From NCBI GenBank assembly GCA_051294905.1, contig CM119372.1, positions 2,110,001-2,174,000 on the forward strand: a stretch of 64,000 nt of DNA, given 5' to 3'. This document shows positions 20,001 through 64,000 of the stretch, one piece after another (positions within the stretch are counted from its first letter, which is position 1; each line of letters begins with the position of its first letter). Source of the stretch: Botryllus schlosseri (lineage: Eukaryota). The notes beneath the pieces are model-generated. The model was not told the DNA's origin. It searched no databases and saw only the letters and a list, made by a program, of their open reading frames with translations. Made by a program: the position numbers and the translations under genes.

Positions 20001-23000
20001 GAGCCAGTAGCCGACGGCATTTTGAAAATACAGCTCGATTGTTTGAACCCGGCATACGATCGCTGTTGTATTACGCAGAGCTACGGGGGAAACAACACCT
20101 GTAACGAGATCGGCTATTGCGGTGAGGACCATTGTTTTGTGGCCTGGCGAAATGTTTCCGGCTTTATCGCAATTGAGAAAAGCGGCTGTTGGATGAAGAA
20201 TGGCGGTTGCGAGGATGTGTAAGTCGAAATTCAACCTTAACTAGTGTTACTTTTTCAGAATTTTCAGTCTTGCAAAACCGGAGGTAAATCCTGAAAAAAT
20301 AGGAAATTTTTCCCAATTCATAGCCGGTTGACTGAAAAACAAATAATCAGCTCTCTCACACAGTGCCCAAAATAGGTTTTTCCTTCACATTATCAGGTGG
20401 TTGACTAAATTAGAAAAAAAAGGTCAGCTTTGCGGCTCAGCTCCCGAAATACCTGCCTGAGCGTTACTTCGGTGCTGATTTACCGCATACCAGTCGAATT
20501 TAACCGTATGATAGACCAAAATTCTCAAGAAAGAGGACAAACCAGTGTTCCCTGTAAGCTGCGCACAAAATCTCCGAAGTGACGACCTTTTTTTTTATCG
20601 TTTCCGCACTGTCGTCCGAGGGTATGCACAGTGAGTCGGTGAGTGTGCGCAGACTCGTCGAAAATTGAACGGAACATTGATGGTCACCCCACCTTGACTA
20701 TCTTGAAACAGCTGCTTTCCTGTAGTAGCCTGGCTAGCCTCAAATTACAGTGCTTTGACGTAGTGACGTAACATGATAATGTAGAGTTATATTTTCAACC
20801 AGAATTGTAGTTTCAATGCTTTTTCCCGACATAAAAGCCCTGTGCCGTACTGCGGCATCCGATACAGTAGCACGAAGAACCCCCAAATTTTCTCTGCGGT
20901 GTAAACCCGGTGTTGTTTTCTTTCATATAATCGATTACGATTGTATTTCTCCCATAATGCACAAATTCCGAGATCTCTTTTCGCGCAGAACTCAATGCGT
21001 AGCAAGGAACGACTCTAAAGCGGCGCACGGTGTGTTATTTTGTTGCTGCCACGGCAACTTATGTTCCTCTTCTTTCCGTATCGCTCCTCCGTTACCGGAA
21101 GAACCCGAGGTTACAGATACCGGTGAGATTATCGGAAATTTCATGCCTGTGACGTCGTATTTGGTGATACTGTTACTGATACACAATGTTCTTTCCAAAT
21201 CTCTACCCTTCACGACTACCCCTGTCGAGTGTCACCCGTAAATATTCGGGTTTATTTCAATATGAATATTAGAGGTCTTCAAAAATGACTCTTTTTCTCA
21301 AACCGTGCTGGCTACTTGATAAAATTGTAAGGTTACCTAATTCAAGCCTACACACCTAGTTCGGTTCAATTCCAACCAGTGGAAGCGGGGTTATTGCCGT
21401 CGAAAAATTTGGATTTGAATAAAATAGTATCTACGGTGGGCACCACTGTAATAAATAATTAAAGAATTGGTCACCGTAAATACTATTTTATTCATATCCA
21501 AATTTTTCAAGGGCAATAACTCCGCTTCCACTGGTTGGAATTGAACCCAATTTGGTGTGTAGGCTTGAATTAGGTAACCTTACAATTTTATCAAGTAGCC
21601 AGCACGGTTTGAGAAAAAGAGTCATTTTTGAAGACCCCTAATGAATACATTTTCCAATTGCGTATTCAAGTTATGTTCGCTCAAGAAGCTCTTTGACCAA
21701 TTATTGCAAATATAGTGGTTGGTGGTTCATGCTTCCCGTTCAAGATAATAATGCTTAACGTTAGTTTAGAAGAATGTTGTGTCTGTAGAATTACTGTTAC
21801 TGTGAGTTTCTTCTCAAAATTCTCTCATATTTTTTAGCAAAAATCTGACAGCCTAATTTGTGCCAATGGAAGGAGTTTTTGCGCCATCTAAAATAGTATA
21901 TTTGGCTTAAAGGGGCACTGCACTCTAAAAATGATGTGGTCCGACTTTATATAGTTGTCAGCCGATGTTATGAAGGAAATATGTCGTACACGCTCCATTA
22001 CGGCTGGGCGTTTTGAAGAAACCGGCTGCGCGTTTTGAAGAAAACGGCTTGTTCTTTCCAATTCTCTACTAGTTGCTGACGATTACCCCTGACGAGTGTC
22101 AGCCGAAAATATTCGGGTTCATTTCGATATCAATATACTATTCAATTGTATAGGGAAGTTTGGTACCTCCATAAAGCTTTGGTATGAGTTGAGTTTATAG
22201 GGAGGTCTTGCCTTAGATCATATCTTGTGAAATGACCACAGTGTGTGCCACAGGGATTTGTTAATTGTCAAAAGCACAAATTCTTTTCATTATCGAAATC
22301 GACTATCGAATGCTTTAGATTCGGAAGATCGCGCCTTGCCCGCGGCGACTCTCATTTCTGTTCTTGCCGTCAGTATGCTTCTGTTGGTTGCCGTTATATG
22401 CTGCGGCTATTACGTTTATCGCAAAAGGAAGATGCATGCTGCGGAAATGGATGCCGTCAGCGTGGTATGTGGATTGTTATTGATTGTAATTCTTATAGTA
22501 CATGTGTCAGCATTTTCGAGTAGGGGAGAGTAGGCCAAGATGAGACACTTTTCGGATAATTCAACGCCACTCATAGAGTGATGCATTCTGAGGATTAATT
22601 TTGGTACCAATGGAAACCCTGTGATCTGTACTATTTACGGCTACGCCTCGAGTTATATTGAACTACGTACTTACAGATTTTTTACCCCGCAAAAATCCTT
22701 GCTCAAATGTCACAACTTACCCCCCCTATGATGAATCAACTTCCTGTCTTTTCATTGTGTCGCATTTTTGCGGTGTATTGAACCGATAAAAATTGCTAAC
22801 AAACCAATGATGATGATGAACTAGTAATATCATGAATAAAATATAACAATCGTGAAATAATTCACATTTACAAAAGTGTTTGCACATCATACGCGAATTT
22901 GAACGGTTTAAACAGTCTTTTTCCAAATTATATTAGAGTTAGAATCGCTGAATTGAAAAATTACTTGGAAATTGAATTCGGTTTCAAATGATAAAGAAAT

Positions 23001-26000: not shown

Positions 26001-29000
26001 AATATTCGGGTTCATTTTAATATGAATATACTATTCAATTGTATATTTAAGTTCTGTACCTCAAAGAAGCTGGACAAAATTAGTAAGTTCAATTTCTTTA
26101 TTAGTTGCCGAGTCATACACAAGAGCTACACTTGGATTTTTTATCTACATTTTTATTATACAGGATTGGATATCTGCCATATTTGAGTGATTCATACATT
26201 TCAGGATATTAGAGAGTCCATGTTATAAAAACTTGAATAAGGAAGGATATTTAGCAAATCTTTATTTCATGTTAATTACATAGGGGATAATTCGAGCTGT
26301 GCCACAATGAAACAATTTAGCATGCCACAGTTAATCATATGTCTGCATAGCATATGTTTAATGGTTGTATGATAGTCATTCAACCGACAATGTGGCATAT
26401 AATTTTCGAAGTAAATTGGTAATAATGCTGGAGTCGGAGTCGGGAGTCGGAGTCGGTACGTTTAAAGACCCAGGAGTCGGAGTCGGAGTCGGTACATTTA
26501 AAGACTCAGGAGTCGGAGTCGGTATATTGAAAATGTGTGGAGGCGGAGTCGGTGGTAAAATTTACCGACTCCACAGCCCTGGTCAGAATGAAGCAACACG
26601 GTGTGTCACCAGCAGTGTACGCACAACTTCAGCATTCTCAACCAATAACTTCTGCTGTTGAACGTTCCTTCTCCATTCTTGGCAAGCTGCTTAGTAAGGA
26701 CAGACATTTTCTACCCGAGAATGTAGGAAAGCATCTTTCGTTGCGCTAGAGCAAATTTTTAATTATTTCTACCATATGCGTGATGTAACTGCTGGAACTC
26801 TTCTTAGGGACAGCTTTCGTTAAAATGAAGTTTTTTCGTGTAATAATTTGTCAGTTTTTGAGTCGAAAAAGTTTTTTCAGGCCAAACTACTTCGTAAGGA
26901 CAGACAGTTCCAGCTAAAAATGAAGATAAGTAGTACAATTCTAACGTTATGCGGGATAACATCTAATTTGCATATGTTAGGTCAAAATTAAGGCAGCGGT
27001 TTGTTCAAGACTTAACAGATATGTCATTTTCACTAACATGCGTATGGCGTTGCTTTGTAATACACGTTTCGGGTCCTGTGATACGACCAATCGGGGTTTC
27101 AAAGGCCGCCACGGTGGAAAATGGATTGAAAACACCGTTTATTTGCCATCGCAGGAAAAATCCTCTTGGCAGAACGAGCAAGATATCTTCTGCACTCCCA
27201 TGATGAACACGCATCCGAACATCCTCAAGTTCCTCACAGCGTCAAGTCGTGGGGAGGGCGTCAACTCGGAGCTGTGGCTCATCACAGAGTTTTACGATCG
27301 GGTAAGACCTGCTAAATATTGCTGTAATGTAGAGGGCGGTTCCAGAAAACTGTTGGCCCGCTGCTGCGGTAACATATTCAATATCTGTGACAGGTAATCT
27401 GTCCTGTGGCTCTTCCATCATTAGCTATTTAAAAGCTTGTTCGCTAGAAGATAACTGTGTGTAATAAGCAGGGCTGGGCAGAATCGAATATTAGGCTTCA
27501 AGTTCAAGTATCTAATAGAATCACATATGTAAATTTTATGAGACCACAAGGATTATAGGCTCAAAGCCAGTTTAACTTCATATTAGAGATTACGGTATTT
27601 CATATATTTTCGCGTACCCATTGCATTGCACTTTGTAACAATGCTGTGGGCTGACCGCGACTTCACAGATGTGTCGGTTCAGTGCTGAATACTCGAATCA
27701 TTGCAACTAAAATACTCAATTTGGATTGAGTACTCAAGCCATTGTGCCTTCCCTAGTGATGGCAAAGAAGTTATTGCGACTTTTACCTCGCCGTTATCTT
27801 GTTTGCGTCCATGTGTTCTGCGATTATGCATTTGCGAATTGCATGTGTGCACTAACGCGGGCTTACTCAAATCATGTTTTCGAGTCGCATCCGCTGCTCA
27901 GGCGCCGTGCCAATTTGTTTGTTCCTACGATCGTTAATTATTTTGCAAAACAATGTAGTTCAAAGTCCTTTTCTGTCCACAGTGGCAGCCATGGCATGTT
28001 CATTTGCAAATCCTCTGATCAGCGCACTGTCACGTGTTGACCATGTTCAGAGTCAAAATAAACAAGTTCACAGCAAACTCTATGCTGCAGCTTGGAGATG
28101 AGCAAATATGACTTTATCAATTCAACTTTATGTGTCGTGATTTTAAAACATGATGTTCAAAGTAATTCACAGGGTTTGTTGTTGATTATTATCGATGCAC
28201 TCCGTTGCTTATGCTATAATGTATTATCTGCCTCGCAACTTGTAAAATTCTTCGATCAATATGCAATTGAATCATATATTAATATTCATTCATCAGCTAA
28301 CGATCGTCAGAGAGGTTATCTTCAATGGCTGGTGGGGAATTGAATGTTGGATGTTCTCTATATTATTCAATTGTATGTTGAAGTTATGTACCTCCAAGAA
28401 GCACTTCAAATTCACATATTACCTGTTGAATATCATGCTTGGCCGCAACTAGGTCGTCGTGAAATCGTATTTGTCTGAATGAGATTTTGGAAAGAGTAAC
28501 CTAAACTGGGTGCTATCATCAAAGAGGAACCTTTTCCAATGGTGTTCTCTTACTGATGTTGACCCATTTTGGTTTTTGGTTGGTGGGTTCATAAGAAATT
28601 GTTGTGGTCTCTGCAGTGGGTCAAGGATGCACGGAATTCAATATCTTCAATATCGATAGTGATTGGGAGCCTATTTAGAAAATGACATTTTGGCAATGAT
28701 TGAATACATTTCAGAAATGATCTTTCCCCTATTATGTTACACGCAAAACTATTTTCCATCATGTATCATAGCCAGTGTATGTGAAATAACTAAACTAAAT
28801 TCCGTATTTGATAACAAGGGTAGTTTGAGTGATTACCAGTGGCATTGGGATTGAACACGCAGTAACTATTTTCATTATGAATGCGATTCATCAATTGTCA
28901 ATACTGTTTTAATTCTTTCGAAAATGGATGTTTTCCTGAATATGAGCTTCAATTGTGATATATGGCACTTGGTCAATTTGGCGATATAACTGTAATGACT

Positions 29001-44030: not shown

Positions 44031-47012
44031 TCATCATCATCATTGGTTTATTTGCAATTTTATCAGTTCAATACACCACAAAAATGCGATACAATGAAAA
44101 GACAGGAAGATGTCGAAGCGACAAGGAGTAGTCTATGGAATCTGACACCCACCTTGGCCTAGGCGATGTAAAGAGGAGGCATGCACACTGAATGAAAGTA
44201 AAGAAGATAGTATAGAAGAAGAATGCGACAAGAAATAGGGCGGCATGTCATGGGAAGCGAGATCGATAGGTCAGTCGTGGTCCGGTAATCTTGAGGATGG
44301 ACTGTATTTATTTAGTAGTAATTGCTTGTATTTCGACTTGAATGTGGACATGCTCGTCGACTGTCGGATGGCCGGCGGGATACTGTTCCACACATCAGGT
44401 CCGGCATATTTGATGGAGCGATGATCTTTTCGGTCGATCATATGATATTTGGACGACGTGGACGCGCGTGTGTTGTACTTGTGCGCTTTTGATTCAGAGG
44501 TAAAGAAGTCATTGAAATATTCGGGGCAACGACCGCAGTGAAACTGATACATAAACTTGGCGATTTCTAGTTTCCGCATATCTTCTATGTTTAAGACGCC
44601 GAATCTCTTCAGCAGCGACTTATTGGATGGGCAGCCAGGCCCCTTTGGGGCCCTAGCTATGATTCGGAGCACTTTATGCTGTAGTTTCTGCAATGGCTTG
44701 AGTGCAGTTTTACTGGCAGCCCCCCAACAGAGGATGCCATAATGTAACTTCGATTGGATTAAGGATTTAAAGAGTATCAGAAGAACCCATGCTGGCATGA
44801 AGCGCCCAAGGCTGTAGAACAGGCCGCACTTCGGTGATAATTTAGTTTCTAGGGACTGAATATGACTCTTCCAGGACATGTTCGAGTCCAGTAAAACTCC
44901 GAGATCTTTGGCATTATCTGTGTTGGAAACGGGCTGACCGGCGATATTAACGGTCAGGTTATTTTTTGAATTAACTGTCAGCAATTGCGATTTCGAGGCG
45001 TTTATGCAAAGGTTGTTCTGGGCCGTCCACTCATGGACTTTGGGCATTTGGTCACCAGTCAGGGCATCCAGCTCTGCCGTCGAAGATGCGGAAGAGAGGA
45101 GGTGAGTATCATCAGCGAACAGTGTGGTGTTCAATGAGGAGGTTTCAAAAATGTCGTTGACATATAAGGTGAAAAGGACCGGTCCAAGTACTGAGCCCTG
45201 GGGCACACCACAGGTCACCGGGTGAGGAGAGGACAAGGTGTCTGAGATCGCAACCATTTGTTGGCGTCCAGTGAGGTAACTTTTCATGAGCTCAAGTTGT
45301 GGGCCCCGAAGTCCGTAACGCGCCAATTTCGAGATGAGAATTTTATGATCTACGCAGTCAAACGCTTTTTTTAGGTCGAGAAAAATGCTACATCCCACAT
45401 TTCGCTTCTCTGAGACATCATAGTACTGTTCGGCCACTGTTAGGAGGGCATGAGCGGTTTGGTGTTTGTTTCGGAAGCCAAATTGTTGAGGGGAAATGAC
45501 AGACATTTTGGCGAGGAATGAGGACAGGCGGGAGAGGAGCAACTTTTCGAATACAATACCGATGCATGGGAGAACGGATATCGGACGGTAGATGGTGACA
45601 TTAGTTCTATCCCCAGCTTTGTGTACAGGGACTACTCTGGCTTTTTTTAGATAGCTTGGGTAGACTCCATTTTCTATCATGAAGTTGAAAAAATGGGCCA
45701 TATATTGACCGATATGCAGGCTTATCATTTTTAAAAACCATGATGGGATTTGGTCATAGCCGTCGGCCTTGTGCGATTTCAGTTTGTGGATGGCTACTTC
45801 TACTTCGTATTTGGTCGTAGGTTCAAGCACAATTGACTGGGATATCGATCTCACCTCTGACCTGGCCGACACAGGTTTTGTAATAGAAGAAGCAATATTT
45901 GGGCCTACGTTACAAAAATATTCATTGAAGTGATTCGCGATGGCCGCCGGGTCTGAAAGTTTGTTTCCGGTATCCGAATTCACAATTTCCGAAACAGACT
46001 TATGCCCTTTTTTTCGATGTAGGAGAGAGTTAAGTCCTGACCATGTTTTTCGAGTGTCCTTTATGTGTCTGTTGAAAAATCTCTCGTTGTACTTTGCTTT
46101 TGCCTTGGAAATGAGATGCACGGTGCGATTCCTGAAACGTCGAAATCTTTCTCGTTCATGTTCTGGGCAGTTCTTGGTGTCTATTCGGTTATGCCACCGG
46201 TTACGTTTACGGATAAGTTGAATCAGCTTTGTGGTCATCCACGGATTTCGCTTCAATTTTCTTTGACTTCTTGAAAGGCGCTGTAGAGGTGCAAATTGTT
46301 CCAGCAGTGATTTGATAGCAGACATAAACTCTACAAATTTTTCGTCAAAGTTGTTTACCGAGATGTGGGGGATGGCTGATGTCTTAAATTGATTGAATGC
46401 GGCATCATCGAGTGCTTCTTCGTCCACTAACTCTCGTCGTCTGCAGAGGTGATATGTTTCGGGGGGTGACCTTTGTTGTTCTTGTGATAGAAAACCAATA
46501 TGGTTGTGGTCACTGATTTTTGCCGAAATGACAAATTGAATGATTTCCATGTCGCGCGAGTTGGTATATATGTGGTCGATCAAAGTCCTTGACTTTTCGG
46601 TTATGCGTGTAGGCTCGGTGATCATTTGGTAAAGACCGGCGGATTTGGCGGCGTTGGAGTATGCGTTGCCTTTGTGTTTTAGAAGGTTTATGTTAATATC
46701 TCCCGCAATGAAACACATCTTTTTGTCGCTGTTGACTTTGTGCAGTGAGCGCTCCAACGCTTTTGCGAATTGGTTCATGTTTTTCGTGGGATGACGGTAT
46801 AATACGGCCACAAGAAAAGATTTGTGAATTCCAATTGGGTGATCAACTTCCAGCCATAGCTCTTCGCAATCTTTGACATTCAGATCGTAGTCCGTGCAAA
46901 TTTCGTAAGGAATTTTTTCTTCAATGTAAAGACCAACACCTCCGTAAGATTTCTTTGACTTCGGTGCCGGAGTATACTCGAAGTTGTAGCCCGATATATC
47001 AACGTGTATCAT
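44031..47012 (-). mobile_element. 5'-truncated LINE with 3'UTR and (ATG)n tail
   Basis: ORF2 is followed by an approximately 240-nt 3'UTR ending AATAAAccaATGATGATGATGA. The same tail recurs near 1420-1540 and 63135-63210. Confidence 0.9.
44271..47012 (-). CDS. Non-LTR retrotransposon ORF2 (partial APE endonuclease plus reverse transcriptase), CR1/L2-type
   Basis: 913-aa ORF with APE motifs (GGVGLYI, VLYRHP, AGDININL, TLIDHIY, SDH) and RT motifs (YRPISVL, QFGFR, FLDLKKAFD, GVPQGSVLGPVLF, FADD). The N-terminal part of APE is missing. Confidence 0.95.
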   Translation of the reverse strand: MIHVDISGYNFEYTPAPKSKKSYGGVGLYIEEKIPYEICTDYDLNVKDCEELWLEVDHPIGIHKSFLVAVLYRHPTKNMNQFAKALERSLHKVNSDKKMCFIAGDININLLKHKGNAYSNAAKSAGLYQMITEPTRITEKSRTLIDHIYTNSRDMEIIQFVISAKISDHNHIGFLSQEQQRSPPETYHLCRRRELVDEEALDDAAFNQFKTSAIPHISVNNFDEKFVEFMSAIKSLLEQFAPLQRLSRSQRKLKRNPWMTTKLIQLIRKRNRWHNRIDTKNCPEHERERFRRFRNRTVHLISKAKAKYNERFFNRHIKDTRKTWSGLNSLLHRKKGHKSVSEIVNSDTGNKLSDPAAIANHFNEYFCNVGPNIASSITKPVSARSEVRSISQSIVLEPTTKYEVEVAIHKLKSHKADGYDQIPSWFLKMISLHIGQYMAHFFNFMIENGVYPSYLKKARVVPVHKAGDRTNVTIYRPISVLPCIGIVFEKLLLSRLSSFLAKMSVISPQQFGFRNKHQTAHALLTVAEQYYDVSEKRNVGCSIFLDLKKAFDCVDHKILISKLARYGLRGPQLELMKSYLTGRQQMVAISDTLSSPHPVTCGVPQGSVLGPVLFTLYVNDIFETSSLNTTLFADDTHLLSSASSTAELDALTGDQMPKVHEWTAQNNLCINASKSQLLTVNSKNNLTVNIAGQPVSNTDNAKDLGVLLDSNMSWKSHIQSLETKLSPKCGLFYSLGRFMPAWVLLILFKSLIQSKLHYGILCWGAASKTALKPLQKLQHKVLRIIARAPKGPGCPSNKSLLKRFGVLNIEDMRKLEIAKFMYQFHCGRCPEYFNDFFTSESKAHKYNTRASTSSKYHMIDRKDHRSIKYAGPDVWNSIPPAIRQSTSMSTFKSKYKQLLLNKYSPSSRLPDHD

Positions 47013-47286
47013 TACTACACTAGGGCGCTGTACATAAAAGGCAATAAAATAGCATCGAGTTGCGTAAGTCTAGTAGTTGCTCTCTATCTATCATTCTTTC
47101 AAGCTATCCTTTGACTATGCAGTTTGCTTGAATACTTATTTCGTCGGCGTGCAGCTAAAATAAAAGCGCTTCCGTGCAATGAAGTCTTGATTAGGCTCGG
47201 AGCTCCGCGATGGACGTCCGCACTGCTCAACGACTAATCACGACTATCACGGTTATAAATCCTACGTGCCTATACGACGTGCATAC

Positions 47287-48271: not shown

Positions 48272-48954
48272 GTGCATACCTAATTCTACGTCCCTATGTG
48301 CAAGCAACATTTGGATTAAAATGTTTTGTTTGATTTATACCGTGGTACAAGACTGAGGTATAGGTTCTGATTTCGTGCACCACGGGTGTATAAGTAAGGT
48401 ATATAGGCTACACAGTTCCCGCCAGCATCCTGTCATGGGCGGTACGGGTGTGAACACGCACTCTTCGCTAAGAGAGCGCAGTGTAAGAAAAACTCAATTC
48501 TAGCAGGACCTGGGGCGGTGGGCAGTGTGTATTTCAAGCTTGGATTGAATGAAAACTTTAAGCTTGAAGCATGGAGACCAAAAACAGTATTCAATGAATT
48601 TATTTTCTTAATATACATCAATAACTGTTCAAGTCAATGAGACATCTCCGGTCAATCAAAGTTGTCAACAAGTTCTTCGAACTCTCGCCGCATGTCGGAC
48701 GTAGAAACACTTAGGAAAGACCGCACGTGCACATCAGTTAGATTGGAAGTTGCATCTCTGTCTTGGTAATGTTGGTAATGTAGCAAGCAAGCAATGGGTG
48801 ATTGCTACAGACTGCGGCCGCGGGTCACATTATCACGGAAGACCGGAAACTATCTGCGGGCCGTTTGCTGCCTGATATATATATCCTCATGTTCACTTCT
48901 GAAGTCGGTGGCAGGTGGTTCATAATTCCTCTTTCGTCAAAGAACAGGACTTAC

Positions 48955-49233
48955 TTAGTTCTCTTGATCGTAGTAACCTTTTGATTCGACTTCATCCATA
49001 CCGTAGTATCCTCTGGATTCGTCCTCATCGGCATCGTAATAGCCGCGTTTCGCGTCACCAGGCCACGCAGGCCACACAGGTCGCGACCTATGCACGCGGC
49101 TCACAAAACGCACCGTAGGCCTACCTAGGCTAGCTCTCCTTCGGCTGATCGTAACGCGACGGCGGCTCCAGGCGTCAGTGTGTAGGACGAGACCGCCGAC
49201 AACGAGAAGTATCAGTGCGGTTCTCAGCTGCAT
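48955..49233 (-). CDS. Secreted peptide precursor (92 aa): signal peptide, Arg/Trp-rich cationic core, acidic GYY-repeat tail; ascidian antimicrobial-peptide-like
   Basis: MQLRTALILLVVGGLVLHTDA|WSRRRVTISRRRASLGRPTVRFVSRVHRSRPVWPAWP-G|DAKRGYYDADEDESRGYYGMDEVESKGYYDQEN*. A strong acceptor (tctcatctctttttacgcag) lies 7 nt before the ATG. A donor gtaagt follows the TAA directly, with a 56-nt intron to 48899, and AATAAA lies at 48599-48604. A paralog is at 62975-63124. Confidence 0.85.
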   Translation of the reverse strand: MQLRTALILLVVGGLVLHTDAWSRRRVTISRRRASLGRPTVRFVSRVHRSRPVWPAWPGDAKRGYYDADEDESRGYYGMDEVESKGYYDQEN

Positions 49234-50020
49234 GATGAATCTGCGTAAAAAGAGATGAGATGTCAACATAGCACCTTGAACAACGTGCGTAATTCGCTAT
49301 CCAATCACACCTTGTGGTCGTTACAGTGCTATATAGTAGCCTAGCTCTCGATCGATGCTGTGCCGAAATGACTCGCTCTTTATGTAGTCATCGAGACGGA
49401 ATGATTTTCATCGAAAATTATATATACACTTAACGACGGGTCCATCCGGACTTGCTGCAACGCATTGTTATCTTTTGATATATGATGCAATTATGTCAAC
49501 AGAAGAATTTTCGATGATTATCATAACATACGTTCATTTTCAATTTCGAATTTACCCATCCGAATGGACGTGCATCTGGGTGGTATGATAGAGTGCTGGC
49601 ATGACTCGAGTCAGACCCGAATCAACTTTTTTGTATAAATTTACCGCAAACGAAATAATCATAGCTTACAGCCAAACTTGGACAACTAGAAAATTTTCAG
49701 CTTTTCCAAATTTGATTAGAATTAGAATGAAAGCTACACATTTTTTTCAAATTAGATTAGAATTAGAATTGGAGCTGCATAGGTTTTTCCGAATTAGATT
49801 AGAATTAGAATTACTGAATTCGCAAAAACTTGGAAATTGAATGAAATCGTGAATGAGAAAGTAAGACAGCACGCAAAAATCAAGTCCGGTTCATATCAAA
49901 TCACATTGCATTCCGATAAGCATGAGAATGGTTAACTTCTGTACACCAAACTAGGCTCGTTTTGTACTATACCAGGGGTCACCAACACGCGACCCGTTTA
50001 TGATCATGATATTTCTTGTT

Positions 50021-57831: not shown

Positions 57832-58853
57832 TCAAGCCATCTCGCAAACTTTTGGAAAATTTGTGGAGGACTTTTTTTGCTTCTCATGCAATGCAAACTT
57901 TGCAAAATTGTGAGACAAGATGTTATTCAAGTGTCTCAATGCCTTGTCCATGACATCCTCAACCTCAATTAGGTCTGAGTCAGATTGAAGTGACACAGTA
58001 TGAATTAATTTGTTATAGAATGGATCACAGTGAATTGCGTCAAGTACCCTGAAAAACTTGATCTTTTTCAGGGGTTTTGCCATTTCTTTACTGAGGATAA
58101 CATAAAAGCGGAGAACCATGCCATGAAACTGTTCAGACAGGCTCTTCAATCCACCAACTTTCTTCTGCATCACTTTAATGAGGTTTCCCGATGGCGCTGC
58201 AGATGTTAGGCATGTGGCAATTGCTTCGTTAGCTTGCTTAGAAATGGCTCCCAAAAGCACTCCACCAATATATTCAAGTATATCTAAAAACATGTCAAAG
58301 TTTTTCCATGGAAAGGCAAAGTATCAAAGGCTATTTACTTACCAGATTCCTTGCTGTTGACTCCTCCAATCTTTGTGATTGGATCCTGTTCTTTACCGCA
58401 CACGAGAGAATCAAACATCTTCAAAAGTAATGCTGAAGCTGGCAGTTGCGGCAAACCCAGCAACTTGTTAGCTTGGTGACAGATATTAAAATAATGTTGA
58501 TGCAATCCGTCAACACCAAGTTTGCAATATTCAGAATGGAGTTGTTTCACCAATGGAACAGCTTTGGTCACGTCTAGTTCCTCGAATGATGGGGCGCATT
58601 CAAAGTATTTTTGCAATTTACACAAGCCCTCTTCAAAACAGCAATTACAGCATCCCTCAGATATATCCCGAGTACTGGTGGCAACTTCATGATTTTTGTA
58701 ATGTTTTTTCAGAGCTTTCACAGTCGGAAAGGATGCTTCGCATTCCTCACAAATCACACCTTTCCAGTTATCGAGTCCTTCGAAACATTCTTCAATTTCC
58801 ATTTCAGTTAGTCCCTCCCAGTCATCCCCAAGTGATGCAGCTGAATCAGTCAT
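57832..58853 (-). CDS. Transposon-borne two-exon protein (about 320 aa) with an N-terminal C2H2 zinc finger
   Basis: Exons 58853-58343 and 58283-57832 are joined by a 59-nt phase-1 gtaagt..tttttag intron. Zinc finger CEECEASFPTVKALKKHYKNH; later motif LEYIGGV...VGGLKSLS. Confidence 0.7.
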
Positions 58854-59145
58854 GATACCGATTTCTATCCGTGACGAAATATGATCTAAATCTGGCGAAA
58901 AATATAACAGAGGCTACACGGTATTATTCACTAGTCATAATGACTCGCCACCGCTACCTAAATGTTGAACTGTCTAACTAATTCCGACGCAACTTCAAGA
59001 AACACACGAAGAATCGCCTTGAACGCCATTGAAACAAGCACTGAGCTATTCTGTTTTGGGTGCATCCATCTGACCGTGACCATTCTGCCGGCTAACAATG
59101 GGAGAACAATCGAGTCGTCACTCCAGTCATACTCTATAATCACAG

Positions 59146-59722: not shown

Positions 59723-62700
59723 ATCACAGAGAGCAGCTGGGTGGATTGGATAGTTGTCTGCAGAAGATTTCAATCAGTAAGAGAAATGAGAACATCAATC
59801 ATGTTGGACTGACCCTCGTCATGATAGAGAAAAGCGTCTCGTCGAAACATTTCTCGGAAGATAGTGCTATTGGTTCGGTACCAACAGAGCTACCAGTAAT
59901 GCATGAAGTCGTCTAGGACTGAGGCCTTCGGGGCCACCATGATAGGAAATATGCGAGCATAGAGGGCAAGAAAATCAAGCAAACGTGGAGTAAAGCCAAT
60001 AATTGATACGAAAATTTTTAATTCCATGATGACATAGGCCAATTCTGACAAAAGAGCGTAAAATATTGATCAATTGATTGTTTGAATGCTGGTCATGGTC
60101 AAGGCCCAAGGGGGATGGATGGGTGGAGCAATTGCAGACGTGGACAATTTCAGTTGTTTTGCACATTCCCTTCATCTATTTGTTAACGATGTGCTGAAGG
60201 CTCCAGGTGCACTGCCAGAAGAATATCAATAATAATATCAATATTTGGTGAAACCATTGAAGAAAAGATCCCCTGCAAGGGAGCGGTGGAACCCAAATGA
60301 AGAAAGATTTCCAATTCTTGCTGTGCCACTAACTATGGTACCAAGTGAAAGACTGCTCACTATGTTTAGTACTTTATACATTATTTATGGAAGACCACAG
60401 AAGTTCATTCCTTGGAGAAAGAGCCGAGAAATTGTGCTTCGTGAACTGTAATCTGCAACTGCTGGATTGGTGCTTTTGATATATTTTTATAGCCCCTAGA
60501 TCATTTATTTCATGTTCAAGCATATCAATGGCTGTAAAGTTGTTGAAATAAATGCTCTGAGTTGTTAAAATTGGGCCTTGAGCTAGATTCCATATCTTTT
60601 GAATATCGGCTGAATATATCGGGGTTATCGGTGGAGGTACTGGATATCGGTCTTATCGGTATCGGCTCAGAAATCCAATATCGGTCGGGCTCTAGTTATG
60701 AGCGCTACCGGGGCAAGCCCCGGCTAGGCATTCACAAAGCGAAAACACAGAAGAGAATTCGATTTTCGCAGAGACTTCGCTATGTATGGGCGTTTGCAAG
60801 CGAAAGCACAAGAAGAACGCGGGTTTCGCTGTGATCTCGGTATATATTGATTGCTGTGCGTCTATAAATGGTTAAATTGTTATTGAACAGAATTTTAGGT
60901 GGGGCAATGCCCCAGTTGCCCTATAGGACGAGCCGCCACTGATCTCACGGGTGTGTAGATGGGTAGTGTATTCACTCTTTGCATCTTCAATTTGTTCCAA
61001 CTTATCGAGGTTTCTTATTCGAGCCTCTACTTTGATTGAATTACAGACCGGGTCTATGTAGGCTAGCTACTCGCGCATTTTATTAGCAGTTCAAGGTAAG
61101 TGTGAGCGATACAACTCCTTTTTTTATGTATATTTAACTTTATATTCGGTATTTGATTGAGAATAAATGGCGAATCACTTTGTCTTTCAAACAGCTAGCA
61201 AAATATACTGACTTTGAATCACCTCGATACTTCGAAAATTCAATGAGACTTGAATTGTGACTTTGACTCGAGTCATCTCCACAAATCGAGTGACTTGACT
61301 TTACTCGAGTCAAAATGAGAAATGAATCGAAGGTATGATGGGATGTTGGCTGTCGAAAGTCATACAGAATATACAGAAAGATTCAAAACGAAGCGGTTCG
61401 TGATTGATATTTTAGTGGGAGCTGCTGCAGAAGCACGCGTGAAGCATGTTATTAGGCTACTATATCTTGCTTGTTATGATTCCCTTGATTACTAGCTTAT
61501 CTTTCCGTTGCCTTCAGTTCGGTGTCAGTGCATCTTGTAGAAACTAAATCTAAATTATGATATAGGTCTTCGAGCCATGTTGCCATCCTCTTAAAAATTC
61601 CCTCAATATATATACATAAATTACATATAGGGGTGGATTCATACCCACCATACCCCCACAATACTTTGCAAAGTCTCGTGCGGATTGGTGTCTATAGCTG
61701 TTCATGTTTAGGCCCTTCATTCTTTGCCACTGGGTTGGAACCTTTTCACATCCACGATCCACGTTTGCATCGACTGTATAAATTTCCCGTATTTACTTCT
61801 CTTTGTAACTTGTAAAGTCCTCTTTTTTCGGATCTTAAAATCTGGTAACCATATTCAAATGGTATGCCTGTCGAGCGGCAAGATCGAGCAATTTCCAGCT
61901 GACTAGCAGTGAAAACAATTTATCCTCAGGTTCCTATATTGGCATGTAGACACAATGACTCGGACATGCAATACTGCTCGAGATATCTTGTATTTTGACA
62001 CTTTTATTTTTGTAAGTGCTTCTCACTTTGCCGTTGACTTTGGTCTTAAGACTCTGAAAATGAGAAAATAGGAGTGGTCAGTAAATCCCGTGTTGATACT
62101 ACTCAATGTACTATTCACCCGACCCAAGGAAATATTTAAATCATGCGACCCATAAGAGGAGGGCATATTATAGGCCTATGACTGAAATTTAAACTGTTAA
62201 AAGTAACGGATTTTCGGAACGAAATGGATAACAGCTTTAGCTAAACCCACACTCTTACGAATAGAGTATGCATTCACACCCAAAGGGTGGTACTCGAAAA
62301 CGGAACCTAATCAGAATTATATCACGGTTACGGCCCCTACGTGCCCACTGCCCATACGTGCATACCTTCCTACGTCCCCATGTGCAAGCATCATCTGGAT
62401 TAAAATGATGTGTCTGATTTATAGCGTGGTGTAGGTCTGAGGTACGATTTGGTTTCGTATATGCATGTTCACAGTTCACACCCGTATATCGCTAAGAGTG
62501 CACGGTGTAAGACAAAACTCAATTCTACTGGGACGATGAGAAGTGTGGATTTCAAGCTTAATTTAAATGAAAACTTTAAGTTGAAAATAGCATAGAGACC
62601 AAAACAGTATTCAATGAATTTATTGACGTAATTTGCTTCAATAGCTGTTCAAGTCAACGAGACGTCTCTGGTCAATCAAAGTTGTCAACAAGCTCTTGAA

Positions 62701-62974: not shown

Positions 62975-63124
62975 CTATTGATCGTAGTAACCTTTTGATT
63001 CGACTTCATCCATACCGTAGTATCCTCTGGATTCGTCCTCGTCGGCTTCGTCGTAATAGCCGAGTTCCTCGTCACCGGGCCACGCACGCCTGCGACTCAA
63101 ACTCACTCTACGTCTGCGCCGTCT
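62975..63124 (-). pseudogene. Second copy of the Arg-rich/GYY peptide gene; 5' part replaced or displaced by a LINE insertion
   Basis: Reads RRRRRRVSLSRRRAWPGDEELGYYDEADEDESRGYYGMDEVESKGYYDQ*. It has the same post-stop intron (62968-62910), 3'UTR and AATAAA (62619-62624) as the first copy. No signal peptide is visible, and a LINE 3' tail begins immediately upstream at about 63135. Confidence 0.75.
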
Positions 63125-63134
63125 ATATAGTTCG

Positions 63135-64000
63135 GTTCGATTTATTAGCAATTTTTAACAGTTCAATACACCGCGAAAAATTGCCATACAATGAAAAAAA
63201 GGTGTCGACTAGTATTCATGTAGTAGAAATGGCTTGTATTTCGATTTGATTGTGGACACTCGGCATGCTCGTCGACTGTCGGATATCCGGCGGGATACTG
63301 CTCCACACGTCAGGTCCGGCGCATTTGATTAAGCGAGGATGTTTTTGATCGATAATATGAAAATGGGCGACATTGACGCGCGTGTGTCGTAGCGTACTTG
63401 TGCGCTATTGATTCCAAGGTAAAGAACTCATGGAAATATTCGGGGCAATCACCGCAGTGGAACTGATACATAAATTTGGCGATTTCTAGTTTCCGCATAT
63501 ATATTTTATGTTTAAGACAACGAATCTCTTCGGCAGTGGCTTGTTGGATGAACAACCAGGCCCCTTTGGGACCCTGTCTATGATACGGAGTACCTTGTGT
63601 TGTAGTTTTCGCAGTGGATCGAGTGAAGTTTTACTAGCAGCCCCTAACAAGGTATGCCATATTGTAACTTCGCTTGGACTAAGGATGTAAAGAGTATTAG
63701 AAGAACCCAGCCTGGCATGAAGCGTCTAAGGCCGTACAACAGGACACACTTCGGTGATAATTCAGCGTGCAGGGACTGAATATGACTCCTCCAAGACATG
63801 TCCGGGTCCAGTAAACCCCGAGGTATTTGGCATTTTTCGACTTGGAAATGGACTGACGGTTATTTGTTTTTATTTTACTTTCAACAATTGGGATTTCGAG
63901 GCGTTTATGCAAAGGTTATTTTGCGCCGTCCACTCATGCACTTTGGGCATTTGATCACCAGTGAGGGCATCCAACCGTGCCGTCGAGGATGCGGAAGAGA
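63135..64000 (-). mobile_element. Degenerate copy of the same LINE family (3' part, runs off the window)
   Basis: Colinear with about 44045-45095, with frameshifts and stops (fragments MRKLEIAKFMYQFHCG.. and NAKYLGV). Confidence 0.9.

What the first reader, a model, noticed from the sequence alone, without database searches (positions are those of the whole stretch)
48955..49053. Three basic-residue-preceded Gly-Tyr-Tyr cassettes: possible ribosomal precursor of tunichrome-like DOPA peptides
Seen: an 11-aa periodic tail KR-GYY-DADEDES-R-GYY-GMDEVES-K-GYY-DQEN. All three GYY are retained in the second copy, while the cationic core has diverged strongly. Known: tunichrome Mm-1 is Gly plus two dehydro-DOPA-derived units, formally a modified Gly-Tyr-Tyr. 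Ascidian blood-cell peptides such as plicatamide end in decarboxy-dehydro-DOPA. I know of no established tunichrome precursor gene. Inference: cleavage after K/R and before the spacer could release GYY for hydroxylation and oxidative decarboxylation, making this an animal RiPP-like polyprotein that yields an AMP plus catechol tripeptides. Alternatives are Tyr sulfation in an acidic context, or a DOPA metal-binding or cross-linking tail.
Basis: inference. Interest (0 to 1): 0.85.

Follow-up and report, generated by a model that had tools for sequence, protein, structure and literature searches.

The report
Tunicate peptide precursor with Gly-Tyr-Tyr tail
A sea-squirt gene encodes a small secreted precursor made of an arginine-rich, defence-peptide-like core and an acidic tail of repeated Gly-Tyr-Tyr units; it belongs to a large undescribed gene family and is a testable but unproven candidate source of tunichrome-like blood-cell compounds.

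Summary
Window 49233-48955 (minus strand) is one coding exon of an expressed gene for a 92-aa prepropeptide (P0001). It has a 21-aa signal peptide, a 40-aa Arg/Pro-rich core closed by Lys-Arg, and a 29-aa acidic tail of three basic-preceded Gly-Tyr-Tyr modules. The genome carries the tunicate cellulose-synthase architecture.

The gene belongs to a multigene family with a conserved signal peptide, a poly-Arg core and a variable acidic tail. A subfamily on three contigs uses GYY modules, up to 19 per protein. Across 14 genes or copies there are 99 GYY, and 98 of them follow K or R.

Between the two window copies the tail is the best-conserved part (84/87 identical), while the core has diverged beyond clean alignment. 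Four relatives from other sources keep the signal peptide and Arg core but have no GYY.

My best reading is a host-defence-like prepropeptide whose aromatic-acidic tail is the pro-region. The Tyr pairs are probably modified, to DOPA or sulfotyrosine. The tunichrome Mm-1 precursor idea matches formally (Gly-DeDopa-DeDopamine) and is not excluded. It has no chemical evidence, no recognisable cleavage site after YY, and no conservation outside this genome. I rate it a new variant of a known kind, of moderate to high interest.

The parts
49311..49360 (-). Exon 1 (5' UTR) of copy 1. The 3' end at 49311 is fixed by the splice joint. The 5' end is approximate.
   Evidence: RNA-seq depth of 1.6-9 in bins 49287-49380 and the joint 49240/49311. 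A TATA-like 'ctacataaag' lies about 49388-49379 (read; inferred).
49241..49310 (-). 70-nt intron in the 5' UTR, GT..AG on the minus strand.
   Evidence: 12 raw RNA reads of run X23 skip it. Its ends read CT..AC on the plus strand (table 5).
48955..49240 (-). Exon 2: 7 nt of 5' UTR, the whole 92-codon CDS (49233-48958) and the stop TAA (48957-48955), followed directly by a GTAAGT donor.
   Evidence: Reads and contigs of 4 runs from 4 studies cover it. Contigs match the copy-specific core with 0-2 differences (table 8).
49171..49233 (-). Signal peptide, 21 aa, ending Thr-Asp-Ala. The cleavage site is inferred.
   Evidence: A hydrophobic core after a basic N-terminus. It is the most conserved block of family alignment A1.
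49045..49170 (-). Cationic core: 40 aa rich in Arg and Pro, plus a terminal Lys-Arg dibasic site. Net charge is +12 including KR.
   Evidence: No Pfam family.
48958..49044 (-). Acidic tail of 29 aa, net charge -8. It has three modules starting with GYY: 49044-49012, 49011-48979 and 48978-48958.
   Evidence: It is 84/87 identical to copy 2, against 120/151 in the adjoining intron.
62975..63122 (-). Copy 2, second coding exon: an Arg-rich stretch plus a tail with three GYY, and the stop TAG at 62977-62975. The first GYY follows Leu.
   Evidence: The acceptor 'tatatag' is at 63130-63123. 203 RNA reads carry copy-2-specific letters (loose end at 49037, compared).
63141..64000 (-). 5'-truncated LINE fragment lying between the two coding parts of copy 2. 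It runs on to about 64736, beyond the window. The signal-peptide exon of copy 2 starts at window-equivalent 64923.
   Evidence: BLAST against the full LINE at 44271-47069 gives 83% identity over 1555 nt.
61985..62053 (-). 3' UTR exon of copy 2, holding AATAAA at about 62008-62003. Its 3' end is not mapped.
   Evidence: The loose-end consensus of reads leaving the stop codon matches 62024-62049 exactly.

Best explanation
The flagged stretch is the 3' end of the coding exon of an expressed tunicate gene for a 92-aa secreted prepropeptide. It has a signal peptide, a 40-aa Arg/Pro-rich cationic peptide closed by a Lys-Arg convertase site, and a 29-aa acidic tail of three diverged 11-residue modules. 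Each module starts with Gly-Tyr-Tyr and ends in a basic residue.

The gene is one member of a large, fast-diversifying family of Arg-rich secretory peptides. The family shares a conserved signal peptide, a hypervariable cationic core and an acidic C-terminal pro-region. That is the layout of invertebrate host-defence peptide precursors.

Shown here: the gene, its transcription and splicing, the family, and the selective conservation of the tail and of the [K/R]-GYY-[D/G/E] module.

Inferred: a proprotein convertase cuts after KR. The aromatic-acidic tail masks and condenses the Arg-rich peptide in secretory granules through charge and Tyr-Arg contacts. Its Tyr pairs are substrates for a tyrosine-modifying enzyme, giving DOPA or sulfotyrosine. 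In the paralogues with 18-19 modules the tail has become a product in its own right.
For: - ORF and architecture.
- Transcription: raw RNA reads (X23) and contigs of three further runs cover 48955-49240. Contigs match the copy-specific core with 0-2 differences. 12 reads define a GT..AG intron on the minus strand.
- Tunicate origin: a GH6 match lies 3.3 kb downstream, on the same strand, of one of the only two Glyco_trans_2_3 matches in the genome.
- Family: 35 matches to P0001 in its own genome at E<=10. 20 distinct ORFs were read from 30 loci and 7 more from 10 further loci. All share the signal peptide and a poly-Arg core. Non-GYY members have short acidic tails, and one has a Gly-Lys-Arg amidation and cleavage signal.
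- Relatives from other sources: 4 relatives, at most 58% and 53% identical to this genome for the two I checked, keep the signal peptide, Arg core and acidic tail.
- Conservation of the tail: copy 1 against copy 2 is 84/87 in the tail, 120/151 in the 3' intron (Fisher p=1.8e-4) and 210/253 in the 5' flank (p=8.6e-4). The core aligns at 82/103 with 73 gap columns.
- Conservation of the module: of 99 GYY, 84 follow K, 14 follow R and 1 follows L. They are followed by D (71), G (22) or E (6). All four Gly codons are used.
Against: - No antimicrobial, processing or cell-type data exist.
- There is no detectable homology to any named family.
- Copy 2 has no basic site between its core and its tail.
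- Tails of 59 aa and of 123-147 aa carry similar net charge, -13 against -9 to -16. Growth to 18-19 modules for one 19-aa core is therefore not explained by charge masking and points to a function of the array itself.
- The 3' UTR exon of copy 1 was not found.
- Most reads on the tail come from copy 2 or other paralogues: 272 of 321 reads at 49027 carry copy 2's letter.
Confidence: 0.6

Rival explanations
1. Catechol-peptide polyprecursor. The [K/R]-GYY modules are excised, hydroxylated to Gly-DOPA-DOPA, and oxidised by phenoloxidase. The internal DOPA becomes dehydroDOPA, and the C-terminal DOPA is oxidatively decarboxylated to dehydrodopamine. The product is Mm-1-type tunichrome, or longer tunichrome-like peptides such as modified GYYDGA or GYYDES hexapeptides if only the K sites are cut.
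For: - Mm-1 is Gly-DeDopa-DeDopamine (PMC3039461 Table 1).
[quoted passage not shown] - A 2023 review files tunichromes under unidentified pathways.
- The organism is a tunicate.
- Paralogues carry 18-19 GYY units, and a basic residue precedes 98 of 99 units.
- Array growth adds no net charge.
- Array paralogues are transcribed: 29 reads carry the ...ESK-GYY-DGAK... junction.
- Tyrosinase-domain genes are abundant, with 22 matches.
Against: - There is no chemical evidence, and it is unknown whether this species makes Mm-1.
- The sites before GYY are monobasic K in 84 of 99 units, not dibasic, and no protease motif follows YY.
- 9 modules of one paralogue are Trp-Tyr.
- 0 of 4 relatives from other sources have GYY, and no GYY array was found elsewhere.
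- No oxidase or protease gene turned up in the 40 kb sampled out of a roughly 120-kb cluster. No tyrosinase or haemocyanin match lies near any GYY cluster.
- The window gene itself would yield only 3 units per 92 residues.
Confidence: 0.12
2. DOPA-rich polymer. The tail stays polymeric, above all in the 18-19-module paralogues. Its Tyr pairs are hydroxylated to DOPA, and it serves as the stored polyphenol substrate of phenoloxidase, for cytotoxic quinone production or for cross-linking of tunic or clot material.
For: [quoted passage not shown]
- DOPA-rich peptides of 1.5-2 kDa, rich in Gly, Ser and Glx, exist in tunic cells of another ascidian, and that paper names no gene (PMC13079984).
- The Lys-Gly-Tyr-Tyr context resembles mussel adhesive proteins (recalled, not tested).
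- Tyr makes up 22-27% of the long tails.
- Short contigs over the shared tail segment reach word depth 1408 and 2097, against 116 and 20-41 for copy-1-specific contigs.
Against: - No DOPA evidence exists for these proteins.
- The tail is acidic, unlike basic mussel foot proteins.
- The family context is peptide-precursor-like.
- The window gene has only three modules.
Confidence: 0.2
3. Tyrosine-O-sulfated tail. TPST enzymes in the Golgi sulfate the Tyr pairs and turn the tail into a strong polyanion. This polyanion neutralises the Arg-rich core or acts as a sulfated ligand.
For: - The route is secretory.
- In the 11-residue modules each Tyr has about 4 acidic residues within 5 positions and a Gly beside it (read).
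- The genome has a canonical TPST and an unusual expansion of TPST paralogues, with 17 Sulfotransfer_3 matches. One paralogue keeps the PAPS-binding GGMPRSGTTLMR motif and lies between two members of the family's contig-4 cluster.
- The tunicate peptide cionin carries two adjacent sulfotyrosines (recalled, not checked here).
Against: - The commonest module, GYYDGAK (36 of about 105), has one acidic and two basic residues near the Tyr pair. That is a poor classical TPST context.
- The TPST paralogues sit beside the non-GYY subfamily, not beside the GYY clusters.
- By my rough estimate, adjacency of one TPST-like locus to a family member has a chance probability of about 0.01-0.03.
Confidence: 0.2
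4. Not a functional gene: a chance ORF or a decaying duplicate.
For: Copy 1 is expressed at a lower level than copy 2, and its 3' UTR exon was not found. Two pseudogene-like members exist on contig 3.
Against: The ORF is intact and has a conserved signal peptide. Spliced transcripts cover it, and contigs in four runs match the copy-specific core. The tail is conserved above its neighbouring non-coding DNA.
Confidence: 0.02

Closest known systems
Tunicate haemocyte antimicrobial prepropeptides (styelins, clavanins, botryllin)
   Same: They have a signal peptide, a cationic mature peptide and a further pro-region removed on maturation. They are stored in morula or granular haemocytes. Botryllin is a 158-aa pre-propeptide with a 23-aa signal peptide and a 37-aa mature peptide of charge +11 (PMC9966394 passages). 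Tyr-to-DOPA and other modifications in styelin D are recalled, not checked here.
   Different: No sequence similarity could be shown. The botryllin sequence exists only as a figure. Those mature peptides are helical and Lys/His-rich, whereas here the core is poly-Arg with Pro or Tyr. I know of no GYY-module tail in them (recalled).
Tunichrome Mm-1 (Gly-DeDopa-DeDopamine) and other tunichromes
   Same: The Gly-Tyr-Tyr skeleton is identical to the module head, and the source is tunicate blood cells (PMC3039461).
   Different: Tunichromes are free tri- to pentapeptides with a decarboxylated C-terminus. Their biosynthesis is unknown. Here GYY is embedded in a protein with no evident C-side cleavage site, and the species' chemistry is unknown.
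Fungal Kex2-processed repeat RiPP precursors (ustiloxin type; recalled, not checked here)
   Same: They have a signal peptide followed by many tandem copies of a short Tyr-containing core, with basic residues at the unit borders. A tyrosinase-type oxidase tailors them.
   Different: In those precursors each unit is flanked by dibasic KR and the oxidases are clustered with the precursor. Here 84 of 99 borders are a single K, and no oxidase lies near the clusters. No homology is expected, as fungi and animals are unrelated here.
DOPA-rich holdfast peptides of Halocynthia roretzi (PMC13079984)
   Same: These are tunicate peptides stored in granular cells, rich in modified Tyr, Gly, Ser and Glx.
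   Different: They have about 50 mol% catecholic residues, halogenated DOPA and a mass of 1.5-2 kDa. Their sequences appear only in a figure, and no gene is given. The tails here have 21-27% Tyr plus Asp, Lys and Ala.
Conserved-prepro, hypervariable-mature peptide families (frog skin peptides, conotoxins, mussel myticalins; recalled)
   Same: The signal and pro-region are conserved while the mature cationic part diverges quickly. The genes lie in tandem clusters.
   Different: The lineages are unrelated. In none that I recall is the pro-region an expandable Gly-Tyr-Tyr module array.

Membership tests
Invertebrate cationic host-defence prepropeptide (styelin/clavanin/botryllin type) | Signal peptide, cationic mature peptide and anionic pro-region, with a basic processing site between them | tested here: met
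   P0001 has a 21-aa signal peptide, a core of net charge +12 ending in KR, and a tail of net charge -8. The same layout holds across the family. Copy 2 lacks the basic site.
Invertebrate cationic host-defence prepropeptide (styelin/clavanin/botryllin type) | Sequence homology to a named member | tested here: inconclusive
   No Pfam family and no named hit in three protein searches or in the atlas. The botryllin sequence is not readable. No styelin sequences were to hand.
Invertebrate cationic host-defence prepropeptide (styelin/clavanin/botryllin type) | Expression in haemocytes and antimicrobial activity of the mature peptide | not testable with these tools
   Transcription is shown, but the tissue or cell type of the coded runs is unknown. 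No assay was possible.
Ribosomal precursor of tunichrome Mm-1 | Made by a tunicate and encoding the Gly-Tyr-Tyr skeleton | tested here: met
   GT2 plus GH6 cellulose-synthase architecture. There are 3 GYY in P0001 and 99 in 14 genes or copies.
Ribosomal precursor of tunichrome Mm-1 | Excision sites on both sides of each GYY | tested here: inconclusive
   On the N-side, K or R precedes 98 of 99 units, but it is monobasic. On the C-side the residue is D, G or E, with no known processing motif.
Ribosomal precursor of tunichrome Mm-1 | GYY module conserved in relatives from other species | tested here: not met
   0 of 4 relatives found have GYY. The search with a 19-module paralogue returned only one of those relatives. 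The databases may lack close relatives.
Ribosomal precursor of tunichrome Mm-1 | The species contains Mm-1-type compounds, with Tyr converted to DOPA, dehydroDOPA and dehydrodopamine | not testable with these tools
   This needs chemistry.
Kex2-type repeat RiPP precursor (ustiloxin type) | Dibasic site at every repeat border and a tailoring oxidase clustered with the precursor | tested here: not met
   Borders are K in 84, R in 14 and L in 1 of 99 units, and only the first junction of P0001 is KR. None of the tyrosinase or haemocyanin matches is near the GYY clusters. 32 ORFs from 40 kb of the contig-14 cluster gave only Bcl-2, Death and retroelement domains.
TPST (tyrosine sulfation) substrate | Secreted protein, Tyr in an acidic and turn-rich context, and TPST present | tested here: inconclusive
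   The context is good in the 11-residue modules and poor in GYYDGAK. A TPST and paralogues are present. The sulfate itself cannot be tested here.
Mussel-foot-protein-like DOPA adhesive | Basic, Lys- and Tyr-rich tandem repeats | tested here: not met
   The tails are net acidic, -8 to -16.

The most novel reading that the evidence does not exclude
The [K/R]-Gly-Tyr-Tyr modules, 3 in the window gene and 18-19 in contig-14 paralogues, are the long-sought ribosomal source of tunichrome-type catechol peptides. These could be Mm-1-like Gly-DOPA-DOPA derivatives, or slightly longer modified GYY-peptides. That would make this family the first animal polyprecursor for small redox-active catechol peptides, co-translated with an Arg-rich defence peptide.
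Probability: 0.12. Interest if true: 0.9.

Novelty: new variant of a known kind. Interest (0 to 1): 0.62.

Why it matters
The reviews I read still list how tunichromes are made as unknown. The identity of the polyphenol substrates that phenoloxidase uses in tunicate cytotoxic cells is also unsettled.

This family gives concrete, expressed gene candidates. From them one can predict exact masses for Gly-DOPA-DOPA products, for K-cut hexapeptides and for sulfated or hydroxylated tails. The ribosomal-origin hypothesis therefore becomes directly testable by mass spectrometry and by single-cell expression.

Even if that hypothesis fails, the finding has value. It is an undescribed, large, rapidly diversifying family of poly-Arg secreted peptides in a chordate relative of vertebrates. 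Its pro-region is an expandable aromatic-acidic module array. That is relevant to innate immunity, to granule storage of toxic peptides and to bio-inspired catechol materials.

Tried and rejected
Searches that found no named relative:
- Pfam on P0001: no family.
- Word-indexed search of 5.8 billion proteins with P0001: 7 candidates, none significant.
- Full HMMER scan of 1.84 billion representatives: 3 hits, all translated simple repeats, rejected as junk.
- Atlas look-ups: no usable hit for the 183-aa paralogue, and only sub-threshold hits (0.81 or lower) for P0001.

Matches rejected as non-genes:
- Own-genome matches on contigs 11 and 8 (20-28% identity) are a 21-bp satellite open in all six frames.

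Literature:
- Text searches for the motifs GYYD, RRRRYY, GYYDGAK, KGYYD and ARRRRY found nothing on tunicates.
- The botryllin supplement holds only a figure caption.
- Two key subscription papers are not held: Sugumaran and Robinson 2012, and Taylor, Ross and Waite 1995. Their proposals on biosynthesis, and their DOPA-polypeptide sequences from Molgula, could bear on the claim.

Expression and gene structure:
- The look-up of sequencing runs listed no holder on record as RNA. I laid the raw RNA run X23 instead.
- The 3' UTR exon of copy 1 was not found in the window.

Neighbourhood and earlier notes:
- Sampling 40 kb of the roughly 120-kb contig-14 cluster found no modifying enzyme. The full cluster could not be fetched.
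- Earlier-findings look-ups gave nothing relevant.

Not attempted:
- I did not run structure or complex prediction, because the protein is short, repetitive and probably disordered.
Full report
**1. The observation**

On the minus strand, window 49233-48958 is an uninterrupted 92-codon ORF (P0001), followed by TAA at 48957-48955.
- It starts with a typical secretory signal of 21 residues ending Thr-Asp-Ala.
- A 40-residue Arg/Pro-rich stretch follows, closed by Lys-Arg. The net charge is +12 counting KR.
- It ends in a 29-residue acidic tail of net charge -8.
After KR come two 11-residue modules and one 7-residue module, each beginning Gly-Tyr-Tyr, the first two ending in R and K. The GYY codons start at 49044, 49011 and 48978.

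This is not chance. In the six-frame translation of the window only 8 GYY occur outside the two gene copies. Three in 29 residues is expected about 1e-4 times per window.

The three modules are old at the DNA level. Tandem Repeats Finder reports no 33-nt repeat at score 30 or above. They use three Gly codons and both Tyr codons, so the pattern is held at the protein level.

**2. It is a real, spliced, transcribed gene**

I laid raw RNA-seq reads (X23) and contigs of three other runs, from four studies in all, on window 48300-49700.
- Depth is confined to 48955-49240 plus a small upstream exon.
- Twelve reads skip 49241-49310, a 70-nt GT..AG intron on the minus strand. This fixes the transcribed strand.
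- The copy-specific core (49052-49192) is covered at a depth of 8-24 per mate direction in X23, from about 6% of that run. Contigs with 0-2 differences also cover it in X1, X5 and X7.
- Reads that cross the stop codon leave the genome at 48955/48956, where a GTAAGT donor follows the stop. So the 3' UTR lies in another exon.
- 1020 of the 1026 laid reads fit only in part, and 713 are 95-99% alike. Many therefore come from paralogues, and I used that in section 3.

**3. The second copy**

Copy 2 (63122-62975, minus strand) keeps all three GYY.
- Its first GYY follows Leu, and it stops two codons earlier.
- It first looked 5'-truncated by the 3' end of a LINE. Fetching DNA beyond the window showed otherwise. 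The signal-peptide part lies 1.8 kb upstream, with its ATG at window-equivalent 64923.
- That upstream part ends in a usable AG|GTAGGA donor. The 'tatatag' acceptor at 63130-63123 joins it in frame to the second part. The 5'-truncated LINE (63141 to about 64736, 83% identical to the full element at 44271-47069) now sits in an intron. The junction itself was not verified by reads.
- Copy 2 is transcribed. 203 reads carry its specific letters upstream of the tail, and 211 carry its signal-peptide sequence. 272 of 321 reads at 49027 carry its letter (compared).
- Its 3' UTR exon is at 62053 downwards, with AATAAA. I could not find the matching exon for copy 1.

Identity between the two copies, segment by segment:

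| Segment | Identical / aligned |
|---|---|
| Tail | 84/87 |
| Signal peptide | 52/60 |
| 5' flank | 210/253 |
| 3' intron | 120/151 |
| Core | 82/103, with 73 gap columns |

The tail is significantly better kept than the flanking non-coding DNA, with Fisher p=1.8e-4 and 8.6e-4. A conserved pre- and pro-region around a hypervariable mature part is the pattern of fast-evolving secreted effector peptides.

**4. Organism**

The genome is 495.5 Mb in 219 contigs. The window is at contig 2, 2.11-2.17 Mb.
- The only two Glyco_trans_2_3 matches in the genome lie on contig 9. One is 3.3 kb upstream, on the same strand, of a GH6 match.
- A GT2 domain fused to GH6 is the animal cellulose synthase known only from tunicates. 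This is established knowledge that I recalled.
I did not try to name the species.

**5. The family**

P0001 finds 35 places in its own genome at E<=10. Reading the ORFs at 30 loci gave 20 distinct proteins (alignment A1). Ten further loci gave 7 more.
- All share the signal peptide (Met-Gln, a Thr, then a Leu/Val-rich core) and a poly-Arg core. The core often has the form Trp-Trp-Ala-Arg4-Tyr-Tyr-Ala-Arg4-Tyr, and elsewhere it is Arg/His-rich.
- The tails differ. The contig-4 and contig-9 members have short acidic tails without GYY. One ends its core with Gly-Lys-Arg, the classical amidation and cleavage signal.
- A subfamily uses GYY modules. It sits on contig 2 (the two window copies and one more), contig 3 (2.57-2.68 Mb) and contig 14 (19.16-19.27 Mb).
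- Four contig-14 proteins of 163-187 aa carry a 19-residue core followed by 18-19 modules.

**6. Census of the modules**

I counted 14 genes or copies, including one pseudogene-like member and leaving out a 32-aa truncated one.
- There are 99 GYY. They are preceded by K (84), R (14) or L (1, in copy 2).
- They are followed by D (71), G (22) or E (6).
- Gly codons are GGC 52, GGT 29, GGA 17 and GGG 1.

Cutting the tails of 11 genes after each K or R gave these unit types:

| Unit | Count |
|---|---|
| GYYDGAK | 36 |
| GYYDESK | 16 |
| GYYGMDEDESK | 8 |
| WYDGAK (all in one paralogue) | 8 |
| LFY, GHY, VYY or SYY heads | 1 each |

Net tail charge is -13 for the 59-aa tails and -9 to -16 for the 123-147-aa tails. 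Growth by the neutral GYYDGAK unit therefore adds aromatic pairs, not charge.

**7. Relatives elsewhere**
- A profile of the family found 4 unnamed proteins in the 5.8-billion-protein collection.
- The two I compared are at most 58% and 53% identical to anything in this genome, so they come from other organisms.
- All four keep the signal peptide, an Arg4-Tyr-type core and a short acidic tail. None has GYY.
- A search with a 19-module protein returned only one of these four.
- P0001 alone has no significant relatives, no Pfam family and no useful atlas hit.

**8. What it most likely is**

The architecture, the clustered and fast-diverging family, and the conserved signal and pro-region argue for a host-defence-type prepropeptide. 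The tail is the anionic pro-region. Cleavage at KR is inferred from the canonical dibasic site.

Why Gly-Tyr-Tyr? Three facts need explaining:
- Strict conservation of an aromatic pair. The one large departure is Trp-Tyr, which is still aromatic.
- A basic residue before the pair and an acidic residue after it.
- Expansion without charge gain.

One reading needs no chemistry beyond the sequence. Tyr/Trp pairs plus carboxylates bind and condense poly-Arg peptides for safe storage, since Arg-aromatic contacts are established drivers of condensation (recalled).

The same facts also fit a tail whose tyrosines are modified, and the genome supplies both kinds of enzyme:
- There are 22 tyrosinase-domain matches and 2 haemocyanin-type matches.
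- There is a canonical TPST plus an unusual set of TPST paralogues, with 17 Sulfotransfer_3 matches. One paralogue lies between two family members on contig 4.
- The 11-residue modules of the window gene are good classical sulfation contexts. The GYYDGAK units are not.
- DOPA formation in tunicate blood-cell peptides is well documented in the reviews I read.

I cannot decide between DOPA and sulfate from sequence alone.

**9. The tunichrome hypothesis**

For it:
- The formal match is exact. Mm-1 is Gly-DeDopa-DeDopamine (PMC3039461 Table 1).
- The idea that tunichromes are fragments of DOPA proteins is in print without a gene (PMC5465252).
- The 2010 review states that mechanisms and sites of synthesis are unexplored. 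A 2023 review lists tunichromes under unidentified pathways.
- The 18-19-module paralogues look more like a polyprecursor than the window gene does.

Against it:
- The borders are single Lys.
- Nothing marks a cut after Tyr-Tyr. The simplest products would be hexapeptides, not tripeptides.
- One paralogue uses Trp-Tyr modules.
- No GYY was found in relatives from other sources.
- No tailoring enzyme is clustered with the genes. In the 40 kb sampled out of about 120 kb of the contig-14 cluster I found only Bcl-2, Death-domain and retroelement ORFs.
- Nothing is known of this species' chemistry.

I put this reading at about 0.12. It is low but worth testing, because the test is cheap and the question is old.

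**10. Comparison and novelty**

The gene works like a tunicate or invertebrate antimicrobial prepropeptide, but homology to styelins, clavanins or botryllin could not be tested. It resembles fungal Kex2-processed repeat precursors in logic but fails their defining dibasic sites and clustering. It is not mussel-foot-protein-like, because the tail is acidic.

Within the held library I found no paper that prints these motifs or names a tunichrome precursor gene. Two relevant subscription papers could not be read.

I therefore rate it a new variant of a known kind: a defence-peptide-type precursor family whose pro-region is an expandable Gly-Tyr-Tyr module array.

Noticed in passing
window 63141-64000 and beyond (L062 to about 1940); window 44271-47069: A 5'-truncated LINE sits inside what was a single coding exon of copy 2 and now appears to be spliced out as an intron. 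Even so, copy 2 gives about five times more reads than copy 1: 272 of 321 reads at 49027 carry copy 2's letter. A full-length relative of the LINE, with a 932-aa open frame holding endonuclease and RT domains, lies downstream of copy 1.
   Followed up: partly
G000 contig 4, 12.52-12.57 Mb and 13.36-13.47 Mb (L067); contig 6, 10.616 Mb (L068): The genome has an expansion of tyrosylprotein-sulfotransferase-like genes, with 17 Sulfotransfer_3 matches. One paralogue is 40-57% identical to the canonical TPST over aligned exons and keeps the GGMPRSGTTLMR motif. It lies between two members of the Arg-rich peptide family's contig-4 cluster.
   Followed up: partly
L003:1501-1767 (+) = G000 contig 2, 2.0099 Mb: A paralogue with the same signal peptide replaces the poly-Arg core by three copies of a 15-residue Tyr/Pro/Gly-rich peptide. 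Each copy is preceded by an Arg-Ser-Arg-Arg furin-type site, and the protein ends in a single GYY-acidic module. It looks like a multi-copy bioactive-peptide precursor.
   Followed up: no
L008:1216-1704 (-) = G000 contig 14, 19.2355 Mb: One array paralogue has 9 modules that begin Trp-Tyr instead of Gly-Tyr-Tyr, as a 6-residue unit. A formal Trp-Tyr skeleton is that of the sponge compound clionamide (6-BrTrp-DeTopamine) listed in PMC3039461 Table 1. This is a curiosity only.
   Followed up: no
G000 contig 11, 8.906-8.914 Mb, and contig 8, 18.04 Mb (L059, L061): Long arrays of a 21-bp satellite are open in all six frames. One frame reads ...CRAYYAA... and mimics Tyr-Tyr repeat proteins in protein searches.
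   Followed up: yes
G000 contig 13, 10.86-11.13 Mb; contigs 7, 8 and 9; contig 2, 17.458 Mb: Tyrosinase-domain genes are numerous, with 22 matches. They include a cluster on contig 13 and one match of 138 bits inside a 695-aa open frame.
   Followed up: no
window 58335-58913 (-), 20780-21241 (+), 26981-27397 (+): One ORF has a C2H2 zinc finger. Two ORFs read to me like activin-receptor-type ectodomain and kinase exons, but Pfam gave no family at E<=0.01, so that reading is unsupported.
   Followed up: partly
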